Of a DNA stretch of 19,742 bases, positions 1 to 6,792 are shown in pieces; the stretch's first letter is position 1, and each line of letters opens with the position of its first letter. A program made the position numbers and the translations under genes. The notes under the pieces were generated by a model. The model saw nothing but the letters and a program-made list of their open reading frames with translations, did not search any database and was not told the origin of the DNA. Location: IMG/VR virus record IMGVR_UViG_2681813004_000004. One strand, 5' to 3'. The stretch is from a virus. Taxonomy: Duplodnaviria > Heunggongvirae > Uroviricota > Caudoviricetes.

Positions 1-2
1 GT

Positions 3-110
3 CTGACACTGGGACTGAATGCGCTGACGCTGACGGATGTTACAAAAAATGCAGCGTATGGCGTTGAGATAGAAAGTCTGGTGCTGGAGATAAATGCACC
101 GGCAGCATAA
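3..110 (+). CDS. 3' end of an upstream CDS that enters the window (C-terminus ...LVLEINAPAA); product not recognised
   Basis: Frame is open from the window edge and ends in tandem stops TAA TAA (108-113); no start codon in window. Confidence 0.4.
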   Translation: MTLGLNALTLTDVTKNAAYGVEIESLVLEINAPAA

Positions 111-111
111 T

Positions 112-153
112 AAAAAAAGAGCCAGCGACTGACCTGAAAGAAGACGCTGGCTA
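112..153 (-). terminator. A-run plus GC hairpin (agccagcg / cgctggct, about 17-nt loop); would read as hairpin followed by U-run on the minus strand
   Basis: Inverted repeat 120-127 / 145-152 with A7 at 112-118. Loop is long for an intrinsic terminator, so function is uncertain. Confidence 0.25.
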
Positions 154-259
154 AAAGGCCTTATATGTTTGTAGAGACTTATTTTTCACAGACAGCAATG
201 ATGCCTGTCAATATATTATCAATATGCGGATTGTTTCAGTTACAGATGCTTTATTAAGG

Positions 260-302
260 AAAAAAACAGCCAGCACTGACTTTCGGTGGAGAGGTGCTGG
301 CT
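260..302 (-). terminator. Second copy of the A-run plus hairpin module (agccagcac / gtgctggct)
   Basis: Inverted repeat 268-276 / 294-302 preceded by A7 at 260-266; same architecture as 112-153 with compensatory stem changes. Confidence 0.25.
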
Positions 303-557
303 CAGAAGGATAGTTGGATTTCACATGATACTTATGCCTGGCGGTATATTTTCTGACAGACAGTGACGGGTGTTGTCAAGATATTGTGTCATTTATAACC
401 TGAATCAGGGGAGGCCGGAATGTTATCTGGCATTTTTAGCAGAGCCTGAATGCCATAATCACGGCTCCCGGAGTTGGCCGTCAGTGGGTGACACTGGTGG
501 TTTTTTTGTTTTTCTTTACTTTCATTTTCTGTCGGCGGTGACGGAGACATACATCAG

Positions 558-764
558 ATGGAAAAAATCACAACGGGTGTGTCATACACCACGTCAGCGG
601 TGGGGACGGGATACTGGTTACTGCAGCTGCTGGACAAAGTCTCTCCGTCCCAGTGGGTGGCAATCGGTGTGCTGGGGAGTCTGCTGTTTGGCCTGCTGAC
701 GTATCTGACTAACCTTTATTTCAAGATTAAAGAAGATAAGCGTAAGGTGGCGCGGGGAGAGTAG
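558..764 (+). CDS. S: Class II holin (pinholin), phage 21 S-like, 68 aa
   Basis: Protein [26 protein letters not shown]...[22 protein letters not shown] closely resembles the S21 pinholin as I recall it (two TMDs, charged C-tail); GGAG upstream of ATG; lies upstream of a SAR endolysin. Confidence 0.88.
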
Positions 765-1019
765 TCGATGAATAAACAATACGAACTGGTTGTAAAATGA
801 ATATTTCTAACTGAAAAAACGTTCCATGAGGTAAGAAAAGGTCACAGGCAATCAATAACAGGACGTGATGAAAGACCCTTGCATTTGTGCGCTTTCTCTT
901 TAGATAGCAGCAGATACTGAAAATCTGAGTTGTCGGGGAGTCAGGGATACAGCTGTGCAAGAGTTGGTCATTGTGATTCCATTGAAATCCTGTATGCCAT
1001 GAAGGGCAGGATTTTATGG

Positions 1020-1334
1020 CTACCTGAGCTTTGGTGATAGTAAGTTGAAAATTCGCATTTTTTGCTGACATGCGTAACGAGAATCCCATAAGCAGGGAGG
1101 ACTTAATTCTTCATTAACCCATGCGTTGATATTATGTTTCAGCCGTTGAAGCATCAGCGGTGTTAATGTTGTGGTAATAATATCCAGCGTTTTATGTGAG
1201 ATCTTACCGTAAGGGTCTGCAAGAATGCTGCTTGTTGCTTCGTTATTATCTGCCATCAGAAGAAGTAACTCTGATTTAACGTTTTCTGTCATTAGTTGTA
1301 AAAATCTTCTGCGCAAACTTTCTTTACTGTTCAT
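1020..1334 (-). CDS. Hypothetical protein (104 aa) encoded antisense within an AT-rich insert between holin and endolysin; candidate moron
   Basis: ATG-initiated minus-strand ORF in a visibly AT-richer segment (about 765-1450); TATAAT-like -10 element on the minus strand near 1408-1416; no recognisable domain. Confidence 0.35.
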   Translation of the reverse strand: MNSKESLRRRFLQLMTENVKSELLLLMADNNEATSSILADPYGKISHKTLDIITTTLTPLMLQRLKHNINAWVNEELSPPCLWDSRYACQQKMRIFNLLSPKLR

Positions 1335-1451
1335 TTATATGGCTTCATTTGTTGTAATCTGCTGCGTCTCAAGGGATATGTTTATGAGAGCGACCATGAG
1401 TGTTGGATTATATACCTAACATATCAAGGGATTAGAAATCGATAAATCCCC

Positions 1452-1985
1452 ATGAACGAAAAAATAAAATACGGCCTGTCGGCTGCCGTTCTGGCGCTGA
1501 TTGGTGCAGGTGCTTCTGCGCCTGAAATCCTCGACCAGTTTCTGGATGAAAAGGAAGGTAACCACACCACGGCATACCGTGATGGTGCGGGGATCTGGAC
1601 CATCTGCCGTGGTGCCATTCTGGTGGATGGTAAGCCTGTTATTCCTGGCATGAAGCTGTCAAAGGAAAAATGCGACCGGGTTAATGCCATCGAACGTGAC
1701 AAGGCGCTGGCATGGGTGGAGAAAAACATCCGGGTGCCGCTGACCGAACCCCAGAAAGCGGGGATCGCGTCATTCTGTCCGTACAACATTGGCCCCGGTA
1801 AGTGCTTCCCGTCGACGTTTTATAAACGAATTAATGCAGGCGATCGAAAAGGTGCCTGTGAGGCGATTCGCTGGTGGATTAAGGACGGTGGCAGAGACTG
1901 CCGTATCCGTTCAAATAATTGCTACGGTCAGGTCTCACGGCGTGACCAGGAGAGCGCGCTGGCGTGCTGGGACATCGACAGATAG
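1452..1985 (+). CDS. R: SAR endolysin (phage lysozyme, GH24 T4-lysozyme-like), 177 aa
   Basis: N-terminal Gly/Ala-rich weakly hydrophobic segment (LSAAVLALIGAGASAP) typical of a signal-anchor-release domain, followed by a lysozyme-like catalytic region; resembles R21 and Stx-phage endolysins from memory. Confidence 0.9.
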   Translation: MNEKIKYGLSAAVLALIGAGASAPEILDQFLDEKEGNHTTAYRDGAGIWTICRGAILVDGKPVIPGMKLSKEKCDRVNAIERDKALAWVEKNIRVPLTEPQKAGIASFCPYNIGPGKCFPSTFYKRINAGDRKGACEAIRWWIKDGGRDCRIRSNNCYGQVSRRDQESALACWDIDR

Positions 1986-2078
1986 CAGAATATTTTCCTG
2001 AAAAATGACGTTGGCCAACGCGGGTGGATAACACGAAATCCTGAAAACTGGTAAAACCTAAGTGAATAAAAGTAAAAA

Positions 2079-2116
2079 CCCCGTTTGTTGGCAGCAAGCG
2101 GGGTTTTGTGTTTTCT
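2079..2116 (+). terminator. Rho-independent terminator between R and Rz
   Basis: ccccgtttg / caagcgggg stem (9 bp, one G-U), 7-nt loop, followed by ttttgtgttttct. Confidence 0.6.
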
Positions 2117-2205
2117 GACCTTGAGTAAGGCAAGGGAGAAATTATGGGTAGGGAGGTACTTTCCCTGTGAGGAAGTATAAAAGATTCTTTCTGAGGTTGT
2201 CCATT

Positions 2206-2319
2206 ATGAAAGGCATTGAAGTGGAGACGCCAGCCAGTCTGGATTTAACAAGAGCGGCAGCTTTTGCCATTCGTATTGTGGCCATTGCTGTTCTGGTCTG
2301 GGCAATCCGTTGGTGGTGA
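2206..2319 (+). CDS. Candidate small hydrophobic peptide (37 aa, MKGIEVETPASLDLTRAAAFAIRIVAIAVLVWAIRWW); stop overlaps the Rz start region
   Basis: ATG preceded by GAGG about 8 nt upstream; C-terminal TM-like segment; TGA at 2317-2319 is immediately followed by the Rz ATG at 2321. Below the ORF-track length cutoff. Confidence 0.25.
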   Translation: MKGIEVETPASLDLTRAAAFAIRIVAIAVLVWAIRWW

Positions 2320-2320
2320 T

Positions 2321-2788
2321 ATGAACCGTGTTCTGTGCGTGGTTATCATTGTCCTGCTGGTGGCCTGTGGTGCGCTTAGTCTGGGGCTGAATCATTACCG
2401 TGATCACGCCATCATCTACAAAGAGCAGCGCGATAAAAAAGCCAGTGAGCTGGAGCTGGCGAACGCGACAATTACTGATATGCAGATACGCCAGCGTGAT
2501 GTCGCTGCACTTGATGCCAGATACTCGAGGGAATTAGCCGATGCGAGAGCTGAAAATGAAACTCTGCGTGCTGATGTTGCCGCTGGTCGTAAGCGCCTGC
2601 GGATCAACGCCACCTGCTCCGGTACCGTGCGTGAAGCCACCGGCACCTCCGGCGTGGATAATGCAACCGGCCCCCGACTGGCAGACACCGCTGAACGGGA
2701 TTATTTCATCCTCAGAGAACGGCTGATGGCAATGCAGAAGCAACTGGAAGGAGCACAGGAATATATCCGTACCCAGTGTATACCGTGA
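2321..2788 (+). CDS. Rz: Rz i-spanin (inner-membrane spanin subunit), 155 aa
   Basis: MNRVLCVVIIVLLVACGALSLGLNHYRD... N-terminal TMD followed by a coiled-coil-like region; strong resemblance to lambda Rz. The ORF-track start at 2264 is a TTG extension not supported by homologs. Confidence 0.88.
   Translation: MNRVLCVVIIVLLVACGALSLGLNHYRDHAIIYKEQRDKKASELELANATITDMQIRQRDVAALDARYSRELADARAENETLRADVAAGRKRLRINATCSGTVREATGTSGVDNATGPRLADTAERDYFILRERLMAMQKQLEGAQEYIRTQCIP
2541..2726 (+). CDS. Rz1: Rz1 o-spanin lipoprotein, embedded in the +1 frame of Rz, 61 aa
   Basis: Entirely inside Rz in a different frame; signal peptide with lipobox LVVSAC then a proline-rich mature region (PPAPVPCVKPPAPPAWIMQPAPDWQTPLNG), as in lambda Rz1. 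Confidence 0.8.
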   Translation: MRELKMKLCVLMLPLVVSACGSTPPAPVPCVKPPAPPAWIMQPAPDWQTPLNGIISSSENG

Positions 2789-3253
2789 TGTTTTGTTATG
2801 AAGGTGTTACTGGTAACGTTAAGGTAATTTAACAAAGAGTCAGTTCCGGACTTTATAGTGTGCTCAGTTCATGGCCAAAAACGATTTCTGTGATAAATAT
2901 TTTGAATATTATTTACAGGTAAATGGAGTGGGGCACATGGATAGAAATATTACAATAGAGAATGAAGTATATGCCCGTATTGTATGGGCAGAGAAGGCAA
3001 AAACACGGTAATTCCGTGTGTTGCCATGATACCTGATTGGCAGAATAGTTGTTTGGTTTTGAGTATATAGTCAGCGTTTTTTGTTCAGTAATTGCTCCCT
3101 CAAAAAATAATAAAATAAGGTGATTATTTTTGTTTATTATTTAGTTTTTTTTGTGTGTTGTTTTATTGTTTTTGCGTGGTTTGTTTTTTATTGTTATTTC
3201 ATTAAGGGAAGGTAAATTCAGGATGGCAGTCTGTAGATAATCGGAGGTCACTT

Positions 3254-3568
3254 ATGCTACATGATCACGTGGCAGAATGTCTGGAGAAAAAAGGACTGTA
3301 CCGGAGAGCAGCTGAACGATGGGCAAAAGTGATGGTACAGCTAAGTGATGACCAGAAAAGAAAAGTAGCGGCACAGAAACGAGCAGAGTGTTTGCGTAAG
3401 GCGCGCCGGACTCCGGTTTCACCGGTGAACCTGACCGAAATAAAACAAGCGGTCAACAGACTACATTCTGAGTTGGGAATGGGATTTGAAGAGCGGCGGG
3501 TATTCCGACGATATAAAGGGACAGGAGAACAGAATACGTCCGGAAACGCGCGGTCAAAAAAATGCTAA
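3254..3568 (+). CDS. PerC-family-like transcriptional regulator (Pch-like), 104 aa; moron
   Basis: GGAGG about 6 nt upstream of ATG; the motif LEKKGLYRRAAERWAKVM matches my recollection of the PerC/Pch family; basic C-terminus; sits between Rz and cos where lambdoid prophages carry morons. Confidence 0.6.
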   Translation: MLHDHVAECLEKKGLYRRAAERWAKVMVQLSDDQKRKVAAQKRAECLRKARRTPVSPVNLTEIKQAVNRLHSELGMGFEERRVFRRYKGTGEQNTSGNARSKKC

Positions 3569-3604
3569 AAAATATCTGAGAGAGTTATTGCCTGTTACCA
3601 TAAG

Positions 3605-3632
3605 AAAAAGCGACTTTAGTGGTCGCTTTTTG
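3605..3632. terminator. Bidirectional rho-independent terminator between convergent genes
   Basis: aaaagcgac / gtcgctttt stem with 7-nt loop, flanked by an A-run upstream and a T-run downstream; lies between the + gene ending 3568 and the - gene ending 3650. Confidence 0.6.
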
Positions 3633-3649
3633 TGTCATATATAAGTCGT

Positions 3650-3874
3650 TTAAGTAAACCTGTCTGAACAGGTGCTCTGGTCGTGTTTGTCTTTGTTGGG
3701 TACAAATTGAGAATATTTTTCATTAATTAATCTTCTTCTGCAGGCTTCAATAACCCACGCTGAAAAATTACCTGAACCTTTCAGGTCAAGAGCGATGTTA
3801 ATTTGTTCAATTATCTGGTTTGGAAATCGGATGTTGCGGGTTGTTGTTCTGCGGGTTCTGTTCTTTGATGACAT
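3650..3874 (-). CDS. Small putative ribbon-helix-helix-like DNA-binding protein (74 aa), possibly DUF3950/YlcI-like
   Basis: ATG-initiated minus-strand ORF; basic N-terminus followed by IRFPNQIIEQINIALDLKG...SAWVIEACRRRL, consistent with a beta-strand plus two helices; adjacent to cos as in several E. coli prophages (from memory). Confidence 0.5.
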   Translation of the reverse strand: MSSKNRTRRTTTRNIRFPNQIIEQINIALDLKGSGNFSAWVIEACRRRLINEKYSQFVPNKDKHDQSTCSDRFT

Positions 3875-4081
3875 AATGTTGCCCCGTATTCAGTGTTGCT
3901 GATTTGTATTATCTGAAGTTGCTTTTACGCTAATTTGATGCAGATCAATTAATACGATACCTGCGTAATAATTGATTATTTCTCGTGGTTTGATGGCGTA
4001 CACACATGTCGTGATAAACCTCATGTAGATGATAATTATTATCATTTTCGTGGGTCCTTTCCGGCGATCCGACAGGTTACG

Positions 4082-4093
4082 GGGCGGCGACCT
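4082..4093 (+). other. cosN cohesive-end sequence GGGCGGCGACCT, copy 1, preceded by a cosQ-like segment
   Basis: 12-nt sequence identical to the lambda cohesive end as I recall it, preceded by ...tcctttccggcgatccgacaggttacg (lambda right-end / cosQ-like). Confidence 0.7.
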
Positions 4094-4187
4094 CGCGGGT
4101 TTTCGCTATTTATGAAAATTTTCCGGGGTTATTGCTCAATAATTATTATCATTTTTCGGGTCCTTTCCGGCGATCCGACAGGTTACG

Positions 4188-4199
4188 GGGCGGCGACCT
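4188..4199 (+). other. cosN cohesive-end sequence GGGCGGCGACCT, copy 2 (the copy adjacent to cosB)
   Basis: Same 12-mer and same flanks as copy 1; followed directly by the R3-I1-R2-R1-like array. Confidence 0.75.
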
Positions 4200-4235
4200 C
4201 GCGGGTTTTCGCTATTTATGAAAATTTTCCGGGAT

Positions 4236-4344
4236 CCATGTCCGGTTTCTCTTCAAGTTAACTATATGAAAAATATAAAAACAGGTCTTCTGTGAACCGG
4301 ACATGAACAAAAAACAGACATGTAAACCGGACATGACCGGTTTT
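4236..4344 (+). promoter_or_regulatory. cosB-like terminase small-subunit binding region: three R elements sharing the core aaccggacatg (one inverted) and an A/T-rich IHF-like site
   Basis: catgtccggtt at 4238-4248 (inverted), aaccggacatg at 4295-4305 and 4325-4335, A/T-rich segment 4256-4285 between the first two; immediately upstream of the Nu1-like gene. Confidence 0.6.
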
Positions 4345-4382
4345 GTTGTGATTGTGAGGTGAGAGTTTTTGCGAGGTGAGGA

Positions 4383-4892
4383 GTGGCTACGCAGACTGAA
4401 GTTGCCAGGCATTTAAGTCTGACCGATCGCCAGCTTCGCAGATTGCAGAAATTGCCGGGTGCCCCGATATCGAATAAGCGAGGGCAACTGGATCTGGATG
4501 CCTGGCGCGATTTTTACATATCGTATCTGAGGAGAAGTAAAAACGATGTGCCTGATGGCGATAGCGAAGACGACTATGAGGAGAAATTGCTTATTGCCAG
4601 ATGGGAACTGACAGCAGAACAGGCTGTTACACAGCAGTTAAAAAATGAGGTGTCAAAAGGAAAACTTATTGACACCGGGTTCTGTATTTTTGCCCTCAGT
4701 AAGCTGGCAATGGCGTTATCCAGTACGCTTGATTCCATCCCTTTATCCATGCAACGACAGTTTCCTGATTTAACACCGCGCCATCTTGACCATCTGAAAA
4801 CCCTTATTGCGAAGGGGGCAAATCAGTGTGCGCGGGCGGGGGATAAATTACCGGATTTACTCGATGAATATATCAGAGCAACAACTGAATAA
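4383..4892 (+). CDS. nu1: Terminase small subunit (Nu1-like), GTG start, 169 aa
   Basis: C-terminal half (FCIFALSKLAMALSSTLDSIPLSMQRQFPDLTPRHLDHL...LLDEYI) resembles lambda Nu1; N-terminal region is HTH-like; GAGGTGAGGA precedes the GTG; directly downstream of cosB. Confidence 0.8.
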   Translation: MATQTEVARHLSLTDRQLRRLQKLPGAPISNKRGQLDLDAWRDFYISYLRRSKNDVPDGDSEDDYEEKLLIARWELTAEQAVTQQLKNEVSKGKLIDTGFCIFALSKLAMALSSTLDSIPLSMQRQFPDLTPRHLDHLKTLIAKGANQCARAGDKLPDLLDEYIRATTE

Positions 4893-6792
4893 TATGATGA
4901 GTGCTGTCACAACAGCATTACAGCCCCTGATAAGGGCATTGCCGGTGACGCCAGTTGAATGGGCTGATCAAAATTATTATCTGCCTAAAGAATCTTCATA
5001 TGGTGAGGGAGAATGGAAAACGCTGCCATTCCAGATCGCCATTATGAACTGTATGGGTAACGACCAGGTTCGCACGGTTAACCTGATTAAATCTGCCCGT
5101 GTTGGCTATACAAAGATGTTGCTGGGGGTGGTCGGGTATTTTATTGAGCATAAATCCCGAAACAGTCTGCTTTTTCAGCCCACGGATTCTGCCGCTGAAG
5201 ATTTTATGAAGTCTCACGTGGAGGCGACGATTCGGAACGTGCCATGCCTGAAAGACCTTTCCCCATGGCTGGGTCGTAAACATCGTGACAATACTCTCAC
5301 GCTGAAACGCTTTTCATCGGGCGTCGGTTTCTGGTGCCTGGGCGGCGCTGCCGCCAAAAACTACCGTGAAAAATCCGTGGACGTGGTCTGCTATGACGAA
5401 CTTTCCTCGTTCGAGCCGGATGTCGAAAAAGAGGGCTCGCCAACCCTGCTGGGGGATAAGCGTATTGAGGGGGCGGTGTGGCCAAAATCCATTCGCGGCT
5501 CGACGCCTAAAATCAAAGGCACCTGCCAGATCGAAAAAGCCGCTAACGAGTCGGCGCATTTTATGCGTTTTTATGTGCCCTGCCCGCACTGTGGGGAGGC
5601 GCAGTATCTGAAATTTGGCGATGAGTCCACGCCTTTTGGGCTTAAATGGGAGAAGGACAGCCCCGAAAGTGTTTTCTACCTCTGTGAACATCATGGCTGC
5701 GTGATCCATCAGTCTGAACTGGACCAGAGCAACGGGCGGTGGATCTGTGAAAACACGGGCATGTGGACCCGTGACGGTCTGACGTTTTTCAGCGCCCGGG
5801 GTGATGAAATTCCGCCGCCGCGCTCCATCACGTTCCATATCTGGACGGCGTACAGTCCGTTTACCACCTGGGTACAGATAGTCTATGACTGGCTGGATGC
5901 ACTGAAAGATCCCAACGGCCTGAAAACCTTTGTGAACACCACGCTGGGCGAGACCTGGGAAGAAGCCGTGGGCGAAAAACTCGATCACCAGGTACTGATG
6001 GATAAGGTCGTGCATTACACGGCGGCGGTACCTGCCCGGGTGGTTTATCTGACGGCGGGCATTGACTCGCAGCGAAACCGTTTTGAGATGTATGTCTGGG
6101 GATGGGCACCGGGAGAGGAAGCTTTTCTGGTGGATAAAATCATCATTATGGGCCGTCCCGATGAGGAAGAGACGCTGTTACGTGTGGATGCGGCGATCAA
6201 CAAAAAATACTGCCATGCAGACGGAACCGAAATGACCATTTCCCGTGTCTGCTGGGACACCGGGGGGATCGATGGTGAAATTGTCTATCAGAGGTCAAAA
6301 AAACACGGTGTTTTCCGGGTGCTGCCGGTAAAAGGCGCATCTGTCTATGGCAAGCCGGTGATCACCATGCCGAAAACCCGCAATCAGCGGGGCGTGTATC
6401 TGTGTGAAGTGGGGACGGACACCGCAAAAGAAATTCTCTATGCCCGTATGAAAGCCGATCCCACTCCTGCGGATGAAGCCACGTCGTATGCCATCCGTTT
6501 TCCTGATGATCCGGAGATTTTTTCGCAGACAGAGGCGCAGCAACTGGTGGCGGAAGAGCTTGTGGAGAAGTGGGAAAAAGGAAAGATGCGTCTGCTGTGG
6601 GATAACAAAAAGCGGCGTAACGAAGCGCTGGACTGCCTGGTGTATGCCTACGCGGCATTACGTGTGTCCGTGCAACGCTGGCAGCTTGATCTGGCTGTAC
6701 TGGCAAAATCCCGGGAAGAAGAGACGACCCGGCCAACCCTGAAAGAACTGGCAGCGAAGCTGTCCGGAGGAGTGAATGGTTACAGTCGCTGA
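4864..6792 (+). CDS. A: Terminase large subunit (gpA-like), 642 aa
   Basis: MNISEQQLNN...VEWADQNYYLPKES...KNYREKSVDVV.YDEL...FVNTTLGETWEE...WDNKKRRNEALDC is near-collinear with lambda gpA. The ORF-track start at 4807 is a non-ATG 5' extension; ATG at 4864 matches the lambda start. Confidence 0.95.
   Translation: MNISEQQLNNMMSAVTTALQPLIRALPVTPVEWADQNYYLPKESSYGEGEWKTLPFQIAIMNCMGNDQVRTVNLIKSARVGYTKMLLGVVGYFIEHKSRNSLLFQPTDSAAEDFMKSHVEATIRNVPCLKDLSPWLGRKHRDNTLTLKRFSSGVGFWCLGGAAAKNYREKSVDVVCYDELSSFEPDVEKEGSPTLLGDKRIEGAVWPKSIRGSTPKIKGTCQIEKAANESAHFMRFYVPCPHCGEAQYLKFGDESTPFGLKWEKDSPESVFYLCEHHGCVIHQSELDQSNGRWICENTGMWTRDGLTFFSARGDEIPPPRSITFHIWTAYSPFTTWVQIVYDWLDALKDPNGLKTFVNTTLGETWEEAVGEKLDHQVLMDKVVHYTAAVPARVVYLTAGIDSQRNRFEMYVWGWAPGEEAFLVDKIIIMGRPDEEETLLRVDAAINKKYCHADGTEMTISRVCWDTGGIDGEIVYQRSKKHGVFRVLPVKGASVYGKPVITMPKTRNQRGVYLCEVGTDTAKEILYARMKADPTPADEATSYAIRFPDDPEIFSQTEAQQLVAEELVEKWEKGKMRLLWDNKKRRNEALDCLVYAYAALRVSVQRWQLDLAVLAKSREEETTRPTLKELAAKLSGGVNGYSR

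What the first reader, a model, noticed from the sequence alone, without database searches (positions are those of the whole stretch)
3040..3568. PerC/Pch-like regulator moron downstream of a phased T-tract region
The 104-aa ORF shows a PerC-family-like motif (LEKKGLYRRAAERW) as I recall it. PerC homologues on prophages are known to activate host virulence loci in pathogenic E. coli (established knowledge, family assignment unverified here). Upstream, 3060-3230 is very AT-rich with repeated T-tracts (ttgtttattatttagttttttttgtgtgttgttttattgtttttgcgtggtttgttttttattg), typical of curved, nucleoid-protein-bound promoter DNA.
Basis: partly seen in the sequence, partly recalled or inferred. Interest (0 to 1): 0.5.

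Follow-up and report, generated by a model that had tools for sequence, protein, structure and literature searches.

The report
Known prophage virulence regulator gene pchA

Summary
The 104-aa ORF at 3254-3568 (+) is a full-length PerC-family protein (Pfam PF06069, E 3.8e-44). It is 104/104 identical to PchA (ECs_1091) of E. coli O157:H7 Sakai, and the 881-bp locus differs from Sakai's at only 3 bases. It lies where group-1 pch genes always lie: in a lambda-like prophage, between the lysis genes (Rz/Rz1) and ylcI/cos/terminase. It has a GGAGG ribosome-binding site and a bidirectional terminator.

The quoted T-rich string is real (3130-3193; 3125-3200 is 71% T, 20% GC). It travels with the gene: 673 of 5426 complete E. 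coli genomes carry it, with a median of 3 copies. "Phased" is not supported. The 10-11-bp AA/TT periodicity and the wedge-model curvature are no higher than in shuffles of the same DNA.

Published work shows Pch relieves H-NS silencing at the LEE1 promoter. pchA itself is controlled by Lrp/butyrate, LrhA and LeuO, and by an SD/anti-SD fold opened by the sRNA DicF. The matching pairings are present here.

One side result: the conserved N-terminal three-helix core of the PerC family consistently gives sub-threshold matches to the ANR (Aar/Rnr) model (55 of 59 members; 0 of 10 scrambled controls).

Verdict: correct call, already known, low interest.

The parts
2789..3253 (.). AT-rich non-coding 5' part of the pch cassette, between the Rz stop and the pch ATG (465 bp, GC 33%)
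   Evidence: Composition. The spacing from Rz to pch is identical (465 nt between Rz stop and pch ATG) in all 8 independent contexts. It is almost absent from sequenced phage isolates (2 fragmentary records).
2871..3011 (+). 46-aa ORF inside the cassette; matches phrog_2157 (unknown function) over its full length; not annotated in RefSeq
   Evidence: ORF. (phrog_2157, E 2.7e-37, positions 1-46 of 46). No CDS is annotated there; it was called as a gene in one assembly (L015).
3003..3019 (-). G+C-rich hairpin followed by a T-run on the minus strand (terminator-like for antisense transcription); function unknown
3021..3049 (+). Only sigma-70-like site found upstream on the + strand (TTGCCA-17-AATAGT, 9/12); candidate distal promoter, which would give a roughly 200-nt U-rich leader
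   Evidence: the scan found fewer sites than the shuffles did, so this is a lead only. The site is conserved in the divergent A25 variant.
3125..3200 (+).
   Evidence: It is present with the gene in 673 of 5426 genomes. It is less conserved than its flanks in the A25 variant (78%).
3191..3218 (+). Alternative proximal promoter candidate read by eye (TTGTTA-16-TAAATT, 8/12); it would place the T-rich tract at about -40 to -100
   Evidence: Direct reading; below the scan threshold; only partly conserved in A25 and E. albertii. Inference only.
3243..3247 (+). Shine-Dalgarno GGAGG, 6 nt before the ATG
   Evidence: Conserved in A25, E. albertii and Escherichia sp. MOD1.
3254..3568 (+). pchA-type gene: 104-aa PerC-family regulator (WP_001303878.1), stop codon included
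3342..3353 (+). Anti-SD inside the coding sequence (TAAGTGATGACC), predicted to pair with 3243-3254
   Evidence: pair probability 0.35-0.71 for three of four assumed 5' ends. It matches the published description of pchA (PMC7769764, citing Melson & Kendall 2019).
3351..3358 (+). ACCAGAAA, complementary to the 5' end of DicF (UUUCUGGU); overlaps the anti-SD
   Evidence: DicF sequence from K-12. Position. The pairing appears in the best duplex.
3605..3631 (.). Bidirectional intrinsic terminator (AAAAAGCGAC-TTTAG-TGGTCGCTTTTT) shared by pch (+) and ylcI/ynfO (-)
   Evidence: dG -14.7 kcal/mol; A-run before and T-run after the stem.
3650..3874 (-). ylcI/ynfO-family gene (DUF3950): the conserved phage neighbour that marks the right edge of the cassette

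Best explanation
The ORF is a group-1 pch gene, identical in protein sequence to PchA of EHEC O157:H7 Sakai. It is carried as a self-contained cassette (AT-rich upstream region, gene, terminator) in the late region of a lambda-like prophage, between Rz/Rz1 and ylcI-cos-nu1.

From published work: Pch binds the LEE1 (ler) promoter region, displaces or remodels the H-NS/StpA/Hha silencing complex, turns on Ler, and through Ler the type III secretion island and non-LEE effectors.

Its own expression is controlled at three levels.
1. Transcription starts in the AT-rich upstream region, which responds to Lrp/butyrate, LrhA, LeuO and ppGpp (published). The exact start site is not known to me.
2. Read-through from the phage late operon when the prophage is induced. 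This is inferred from position and fits the published SOS induction of group-1 pch.
3. Translation: the SD is sequestered by an anti-SD inside the coding sequence, and DicF pairing opens it (published for pchA). The pairing elements are present here.

The T-rich tract is best read as compositionally AT-rich, flexible regulatory DNA that comes with the cassette. It is not a phased, intrinsically curved element.
For: Identity:
- PF06069 at E 3.8e-44, full length.
- 104/104 identity to Sakai PchA, and 878/881 nt over the locus including all upstream DNA.
- RefSeq and UniRef names: 'PerC family' and 'PchABC family transcriptional regulator'.
- 48% identity to EPEC PerC encoded in the perA-perB-perC operon.

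Context:
- The order holin-lysozyme-Rz | pch | ylcI | nu1-terL-portal... appears in every context inspected.
- The lambda cos sequence lies downstream.

Cassette behaviour:
- The upstream 214 bp is found in the same number of genomes (673) that carry the full locus, with a median of 3 copies, and is >=99% identical in 644 of 688 records.

RNA elements:
- SD/anti-SD pairing, DicF seed complement, terminator.

Mechanism and regulation from papers:
- PMC4764244: anti-H-NS action at LEE1.
- PMC6265319: three pch groups, of which only group 1 activates LEE; SOS induction of group 1.
- PMC7769764: anti-SD and DicF.
- PMC7279287, PMC4456613, PMC10101121: Lrp/butyrate, LrhA, LeuO; the operator has not been mapped.
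Against: Nothing contradicts the identification. The gaps are these.
- No experiment was done on this copy.
- The transcription start is not established here. The only 9/12 promoter-like site is 200 nt upstream, and the scan found fewer sites than shuffles did.
- With an assumed 5' end at 3150, the SD pairs mainly with 3277-3284 rather than the distal anti-SD.
- Whole-length DicF duplex energy does not stand out from other parts of the window (27% of chunks are equal or better).
- Whether the host of this window carries a LEE is unknown.
Confidence: 0.95

Rival explanations
1. One reading: 3060-3230 is intrinsically curved DNA made of helically phased T-tracts, and it serves as a nucleation site for H-NS-type silencing of the pch promoter.
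For: GC is 20-27% and there are many T-runs. Predicted curvature is above the window median, and the regional maximum lies in the top 0.5-1.3% of the window. AT-rich horizontally acquired DNA is the general H-NS target (PMC4764244, introduction). TRF finds a weak period-21 repeat, which equals two helical turns.
Against: The 10-11-bp AA/TT periodicity is not above shuffles (p 0.12-0.28). Curvature equals that of dinucleotide shuffles of the same DNA. The tract centres are spaced 21, 49.5, 19.5, 14, 8.5 and 15.5 bp apart, so they are not in register. The strongest predicted bend of the window in two of three models is at 3565, not here. In the A25 variant, part of the tract is replaced by G-rich sequence while the gene is kept. 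None of the papers read reported H-NS binding at pch upstream DNA.
Confidence: 0.25
2. The T-rich tract is transcribed as a roughly 200-nt U-rich 5' leader from a promoter near 3021-3049. It then acts at the RNA level, for example as an Hfq or ribosomal protein S1 binding platform or as a target for sRNAs or Rho, rather than as promoter DNA.
For: The only 9/12 sigma-70-like site on the + strand lies upstream of the tract and is conserved in A25. The strand asymmetry is extreme (71% T against 9% A), which a purely DNA-level AT-rich element does not require. pchA is known to be under post-transcriptional control (PMC7769764).
Against: No Rfam family matches. The tract's sequence is poorly conserved in A25 and E. 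albertii. It is predicted to be largely paired rather than free (mean pair probability 0.71). No start-site data were available to me.
Confidence: 0.25
3. The gene is a PerC-family paralogue with a different or no role in LEE control, like PchD, PchE or the PICI-encoded PerC-like proteins. Some of these repress LEE or curli.
For: The family contains such members (PMC6265319, PMC11773190).
Against: The protein is 100% identical to PchA, a group-1 member shown to activate LEE (PMC4764244, PMC6265319). It also sits in the group-1 genomic position.
Confidence: 0.02

Closest known systems
PchA/PchB/PchC (group-1 PerC homologues) of EHEC O157:H7 Sakai; pchA = ECs_1091 in prophage Sp4
   Same: The protein is identical to PchA (104/104). 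The locus, including upstream DNA and terminator, matches at 878/881 nt. The neighbours are the same (Rz/Rz1 upstream), as are the SD, anti-SD and DicF-complementary elements.
   Different: In Sakai Sp4 the holin-to-pchA block is inverted between IS629 and ISEc8 copies, so pchA no longer faces the terminase genes. In this window the prophage late region is collinear and uninterrupted. Comparison with pchB and pchC was not made directly.
PerC of EPEC E2348/69 (EAF plasmid, perABC operon)
   Same: Same Pfam family and the same N-terminal signature. Published work shows cross-activation of LEE1 (PMC4764244 and references in it).
   Different: Only 48% identity. PerC is 89 aa and lacks the C-terminal tail. 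It is plasmid-borne, is the third gene of an operon driven by the AraC-type PerA, and has no T-rich leader.
PchD, PchE and PICI-encoded PerC-like proteins (e.g. EcCIMP1_025)
   Same: Same family, and also carried on mobile elements.
   Different: These do not activate LEE, and some repress LEE or curli (PMC6265319, PMC11773190). They share only about 30-45% identity with this protein, as other family members do.
ANR family (AraC negative regulators: Aar of EAEC, Rnr of EPEC)
   Same: Both are small helical regulators on mobile DNA. Pch residues about 7-51 align with ANR model positions 8-53, with a shared E..G.Y..A...W...R..R...C pattern. Three helices are predicted over this stretch, as reported for ANRs (PMC4983702). 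Both families act on H-NS-silenced virulence genes (PMC5570504, PMC4764244).
   Different: All scores are below the curated cutoff (13-21 bits against 32). ANRs lack the PerC C-terminal half. They act by binding AraC-type activators and H-NS and are mostly negative regulators. Pch was reported to bind DNA and to activate.
Lambda bor and other morons at the right end of lambdoid genomes
   Same: Same slot, between Rz and cos. The gene is small, has its own terminator and has lower GC than its flanks.
   Different: The protein is unrelated, and bor is on the opposite strand. Here the gene is co-oriented with the late operon, so late read-through is possible.

Membership tests
PerC family (Pfam PF06069) | Profile HMM match above the gathering threshold over the whole domain | tested here: met
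   149.3 bits against a cutoff of 22.6; E 3.8e-44; residues 1-89 on profile positions 1-89 of 90.
PerC family (Pfam PF06069) | Conserved N-terminal signature (A..LE..G.[YW]RRAA.RW ... C) | tested here: met
   A19 and W23 are invariant. A7, L10, E11, G14, R17, R18, A20, R22 and C46 are >=90% conserved in 59 diverse members, and all are present in the window protein.
PerC family (Pfam PF06069) | Detectable similarity to the founding member, EPEC PerC | tested here: met
   tblastn gives E 1e-17 and 47% identity over residues 2-88 to pMAR7 perC; 48% in the alignment.
Group-1 Pch (PchA/B/C) of EHEC | Near-identity to PchA/B/C and a length of 104 aa | tested here: met
   104/104 identical to Sakai PchA, NP_309118.1.
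Group-1 Pch (PchA/B/C) of EHEC | Location in a lambdoid prophage downstream of the lysis cassette | tested here: met
Group-1 Pch (PchA/B/C) of EHEC | Activates LEE1/ler transcription and relieves H-NS silencing | not testable with these tools
   Shown for the identical protein in PMC4764244. Not tested for this copy, and the LEE status of the host is unknown.
Phage moron | Extra gene inserted between conserved phage genes, with deviating base composition | tested here: met
   Inserted between Rz and ylcI/cos. GC is 33% upstream and 49% in the CDS, against 53% for the window. The cassette DNA is nearly absent from phage isolates.
Phage moron | Own terminator | tested here: met
   3605-3631, dG -14.7 kcal/mol, with flanking A- and T-runs.
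Phage moron | Own promoter, active in the lysogen | tested here: inconclusive
   Only weak consensus matches (and direct reading). Literature shows a native PpchA works on plasmids (PMC10101121, PMC7279287), but the start site was not available to me.
Intrinsically curved DNA (phased A/T tracts) | A/T tracts repeated in phase with the helix (about 10-11 bp), giving curvature beyond what the composition gives | tested here: not met
   (not above shuffles).
ANR family (NCBIfam NF033650) | HMM score above the curated cutoff (32 bits) | tested here: not met
   13.6 bits, E 0.046 for the window protein. 55 of 59 family members match below the cutoff. This indicates a remote relationship, not membership.

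The most novel reading that the evidence does not exclude
The PerC/Pch family and the ANR family (Aar, Rnr) share a common three-helix module. Pch/PerC would then counteract H-NS silencing, at least in part, as ANRs do: by direct protein-protein contact with H-NS-family proteins (and, for PerC, possibly with the AraC-type PerA encoded in the same operon), rather than as conventional sequence-specific DNA-binding activators. A 2025 paper noted ANR hits for one PICI-encoded PerC-like protein (PMC11773190). I found no paper that extends the relationship to the whole family, including canonical PerC and PchA.
Probability: 0.3. Interest if true: 0.5.

Novelty: already known. Interest (0 to 1): 0.12.

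Why it matters
pch genes are master switches that connect prophage content to expression of the LEE type III secretion system in EHEC and atypical EPEC. Recognising one in a sequence flags the host as a likely attaching-and-effacing pathogen, or a donor of that regulatory capacity. This has been understood since 2004-2016, so the window adds no new biology. Two small open points remain: the operator and start-site architecture of the AT-rich pchA upstream region, which recent papers still call unmapped (PMC10101121), and the possible common origin of the PerC and ANR regulators. The second could change how Pch is thought to oppose H-NS.

Tried and rejected
- Rfam scan of 1-6000 at E<=1: only three chance-level hits, none in 2789-3650.
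- Phage-isolate collection: only two unannotated fragments from an O157 host. Comparative work therefore used E. coli genomes.
- Melson & Kendall 2019 (DicF-pchA) could not be read by DOI or by a guessed PMC id. The mechanism is taken from a review (PMC7769764).
- No open paper gave a pchA transcription start.
- Lrp consensus scan: two 3-mismatch sites at 3041 and 3108, no better than elsewhere in the window. Not used.
- Whole-length RNAduplex of DicF against the mRNA: not discriminating (27% of other chunks are as good). Only the short seed and anti-SD overlap is reported.
- Best SD-versus-CDS duplex search picked a different partner (3393-3419, p 0.056 against shuffles). The partition-function fold was preferred.
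- The 31-aa hydrophobic ORF at 3120-3215, inside the T-rich tract: no PHROG match and no SD. Rejected as a by-product of T-richness.
- PDB by sequence (single protein and profile): no relatives.
- AlphaFold model: only moderate confidence (pLDDT 67), and Foldseek against PDB gave nothing.
- GTDB species representatives yielded only two loci (E. albertii and Escherichia sp.).
- hhalign of the PerC alignment against a shallow Rnr alignment was weak (P 0.0025, probability 12%). The ANR link therefore rests mainly on the consistent NCBIfam hits and the scrambled-sequence control.

Full report
**1. What is in the sequence**

The window has an ATG-initiated ORF at 3254-3568 on the + strand. A GGAGG Shine-Dalgarno lies at 3243-3247, six bases before the ATG.

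Composition relative to the 53.4% GC window:
- 2789-3253: 33% GC
- 3060-3230: 26.9% GC
- 3125-3200: 19.7% GC, with 71% T and only 2.6% C on the + strand

The ORF, the motif and the AT/T-richness are therefore real and at the stated coordinates.

**2. Is the T-tract region phased or curved?**

Two tests were run.
- The Fourier power of AA/TT dinucleotides at 10-11 bp is no higher than in shuffles of the same region (fraction of shuffles >= observed: 0.12-0.28). The strongest component is at 11.5 bp.
- A wedge-model trajectory used Bolshoy-Trifonov, AA-wedge and De Santis parameters. The parameter tables were recalled from memory. Phased-A-tract and out-of-phase controls behaved as expected.

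The wedge models give a mean of 9-10 degrees per helical turn, against a window median of 5.2-5.7, and the regional maximum lies in the top 0.5-1.3% of the window. But dinucleotide-preserving shuffles of the region give the same mean and maximum (fraction >= observed: 0.17-0.65).

The predicted bendability is thus a consequence of composition, not of tract spacing. The strongest predicted bend of the window in two of the three models is at 3565, over the A-tracts around the pch stop codon. 'Phased' is not supported; 'very AT-rich with T-tracts' is.

**3. Identity of the protein**

- Pfam PF06069 (PerC) matches at E 3.8e-44 (149 bits; gathering score 22.6), over residues 1-89 on profile positions 1-89 of 90.
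- RefSeq annotates the identical protein (WP_001303878.1) as a 'PerC family transcriptional regulator'.
- The exact sequence is named 'PchABC family transcriptional regulator' in UniRef. It occurs on at least 1000 contigs (the counter's ceiling) and in 15,398 blocks of the assembly collection.
- Against O157:H7 Sakai it is 104/104 identical to PchA (ECs_1091, prophage Sp4). The 881-bp locus 2780-3660 differs at three bases, with all upstream DNA identical except one base near the Rz end.
- EPEC PerC, the third gene of the perA-perB-perC operon on pMAR7, is 48% identical.
- The family is small: 82 clusters at 50% identity among 1.84 billion representatives at E <= 1e-3.

**4. Context and anatomy**

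The window is a lambda-like prophage late region. Gene order is holin, lysozyme, Rz/Rz1 (ending at 2788), pch, ylcI/ynfO (3650-3874, minus strand), cos, nu1 (from 4383), terminase large subunit, portal, head and tail genes.

The same order, with the same 465 nt between the Rz stop and the pch ATG, is seen in all eight independent contexts retrieved for the exact protein.

The 214 bp upstream of pch is present in 673 of 5426 complete E. coli genomes, the same number of genomes that carry the whole 1.1-kb locus. The median is three copies per genome, and 644 of 688 records are >=99% identical. The AT-rich region, the gene and the terminator therefore move as one cassette.

A bidirectional terminator (3605-3631, -14.7 kcal/mol, with an A-run before and a T-run after) separates pch from the convergent ylcI gene.

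In a divergent variant (strain A25), 2789-3090 is about 97% identical, but the T-rich tract and the gene have diverged (78% over the 214-bp query). Part of the tract is replaced by G-rich sequence. The E. albertii homologue keeps only the proximal roughly 60 bp (TTAAGGGAAG..GATAATYGGAGGTCAYTTATG). The exact T-tract arrangement is thus not under strong constraint.

**5. How it works**

These points are from published work on the identical protein.
- Pch activates the LEE1 (ler) promoter only when that promoter is silenced by H-NS/StpA/Hha/YdgT. Pch reduces H-NS occupancy and remodels the nucleoprotein complex, and it also boosts Ler-dependent promoters (PMC4764244).
- Only group-1 pch genes (pchA, pchB, pchC) are needed for LEE expression and adherence. 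Group 1 is induced by the SOS response (PMC6265319).
- The pchA promoter responds to butyrate through Lrp, and to LrhA and LeuO (PMC4456613, PMC7279287). Its operator is still described as unmapped (PMC10101121).
- pchA translation is blocked by an anti-SD inside the coding sequence and released when the sRNA DicF pairs there (PMC7769764).

In the window, partition-function folding pairs the SD region 3243-3254 with 3342-3353 (TAAGTGATGACC) at probability 0.35-0.71 for three of four assumed 5' ends. The 5' end of K-12 DicF (UUUCUGGU) is complementary to ACCAGAAA at 3351-3358, overlapping that anti-SD. These features agree with the published model.

Two things are inferred and not shown. First, pch is co-oriented with the late operon, and the scan found no + strand terminator-like site between Rz and pch. 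It should therefore also be transcribed from the late promoter on induction, which would explain the SOS effect. Second, the transcription start is unknown. Candidates are TTGCCA-17-AATAGT at 3021-3049, which would make the T-rich tract a U-rich leader, and a weaker TTGTTA-16-TAAATT at 3191-3218 (direct reading), which would make it upstream promoter DNA.

**6. Side result: PerC family and ANR family**

The window protein gave a weak NCBIfam hit to ANR_neg_reg (NF033650, E 0.046). Follow-up showed the following.
- 55 of 59 diverse PerC-family members hit this model at E <= 0.1 (best 5e-7).
- The register was the same in all ten proteins inspected individually (including EPEC PerC, E 0.0017) and in the window protein (E 0.046): protein residues about 7-51 against model positions 8-53.
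- None of ten reversed or shuffled versions hit the model.
- All scores are below the curated cutoff, so this is a remote relationship, not membership.
- hhalign against a shallow alignment of EPEC Rnr relatives was weak but used the same register (P 0.0025).
- An AlphaFold model (pLDDT 67) predicts three helices over residues 2-51, then two more, and a disordered tail. ANRs are described as having three conserved predicted helices (PMC4983702).

ANRs bind AraC-type regulators and H-NS directly (PMC4983702, PMC5570504). One 2025 paper noted ANR hits for a PICI-encoded PerC-like repressor (PMC11773190). The ANR papers I read do not mention PerC or Pch. This is a lead on mechanism, not a finding about the window.

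**7. Verdict**

The locus is the well-characterised pchA cassette. The 'phased/curved' description of the upstream DNA is not supported beyond its AT-richness. Novelty: already known. Interest: low.

Noticed in passing
window 4032-4233: The cos region is tandemly duplicated (period 106, 1.9 copies, 96% matches), so the lambda cohesive-end sequence GGGCGGCGACCT occurs twice, at 4082 and 4188. The closest genome (CP039403) has a single copy: its coordinate offset changes by 106 bp across this point. This could be a real duplication of cosN-cosB or an assembly effect.
   Followed up: partly
window 3254-3410 (Pch residues ~7-51); alignment A5: The conserved N-terminal core of the PerC family gives consistent sub-threshold matches to the ANR (AraC negative regulator) model NF033650. 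55 of 59 members match (best E 5e-7), in the same register in the proteins inspected individually, and 0 of 10 reversed or shuffled controls match. Only one paper was found that mentions ANR hits, and for a single PerC-like protein (PMC11773190).
   Followed up: partly
window 2871-3011 (+): A 46-aa ORF inside the pch cassette matches phrog_2157 (unknown function) over its full length (E 2.7e-37). It is not annotated in the RefSeq genomes inspected. A minus-strand terminator-like hairpin (3003-3019) overlaps its 3' end.
   Followed up: partly
window ~3555-3580: The strongest predicted DNA bend of the window in two of three wedge models is at the pch stop codon (GGTCAAAAAAATGCTAAAAAATATC), not in the upstream T-rich region.
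   Followed up: no
L003 32131-39827 (Sakai Sp4): In O157:H7 Sakai the holin-lysozyme-Rz-pchA block is inverted relative to the terminase genes and is bracketed by IS629 and ISEc8 copies. pchA is therefore uncoupled from the late operon there, unlike in this window.
   Followed up: no
L008 (plasmid pOkiPb01717_2) 782-3211: An Rz-pch cassette encoding the identical Pch protein sits on a 79-kb plasmid next to nleH and espS effector gene remnants and IS fragments. The pch cassette is thus also found outside intact prophages.
   Followed up: no
L007 2380-2745 (strain A25): The divergent pch-carrying prophage has an HNH endonuclease gene between ylcI and a different small terminase. The same moron therefore sits in front of a different packaging module.
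   Followed up: no
window 3120-3215 (+): A 31-aa very hydrophobic ORF (MIIFVYYLVFFVCCFIVFAWFVFYCYFIKGR) lies in the T-rich tract. It has no PHROG match and no SD, and is most likely a by-product of T-richness.
   Followed up: yes
protein P0039: A 7614-aa protein in the representative library matches Pch residues 21-68 in seven separate stretches (E 7e-11). It could be a repeat protein containing PerC-like helices or a compositional artefact.
   Followed up: no
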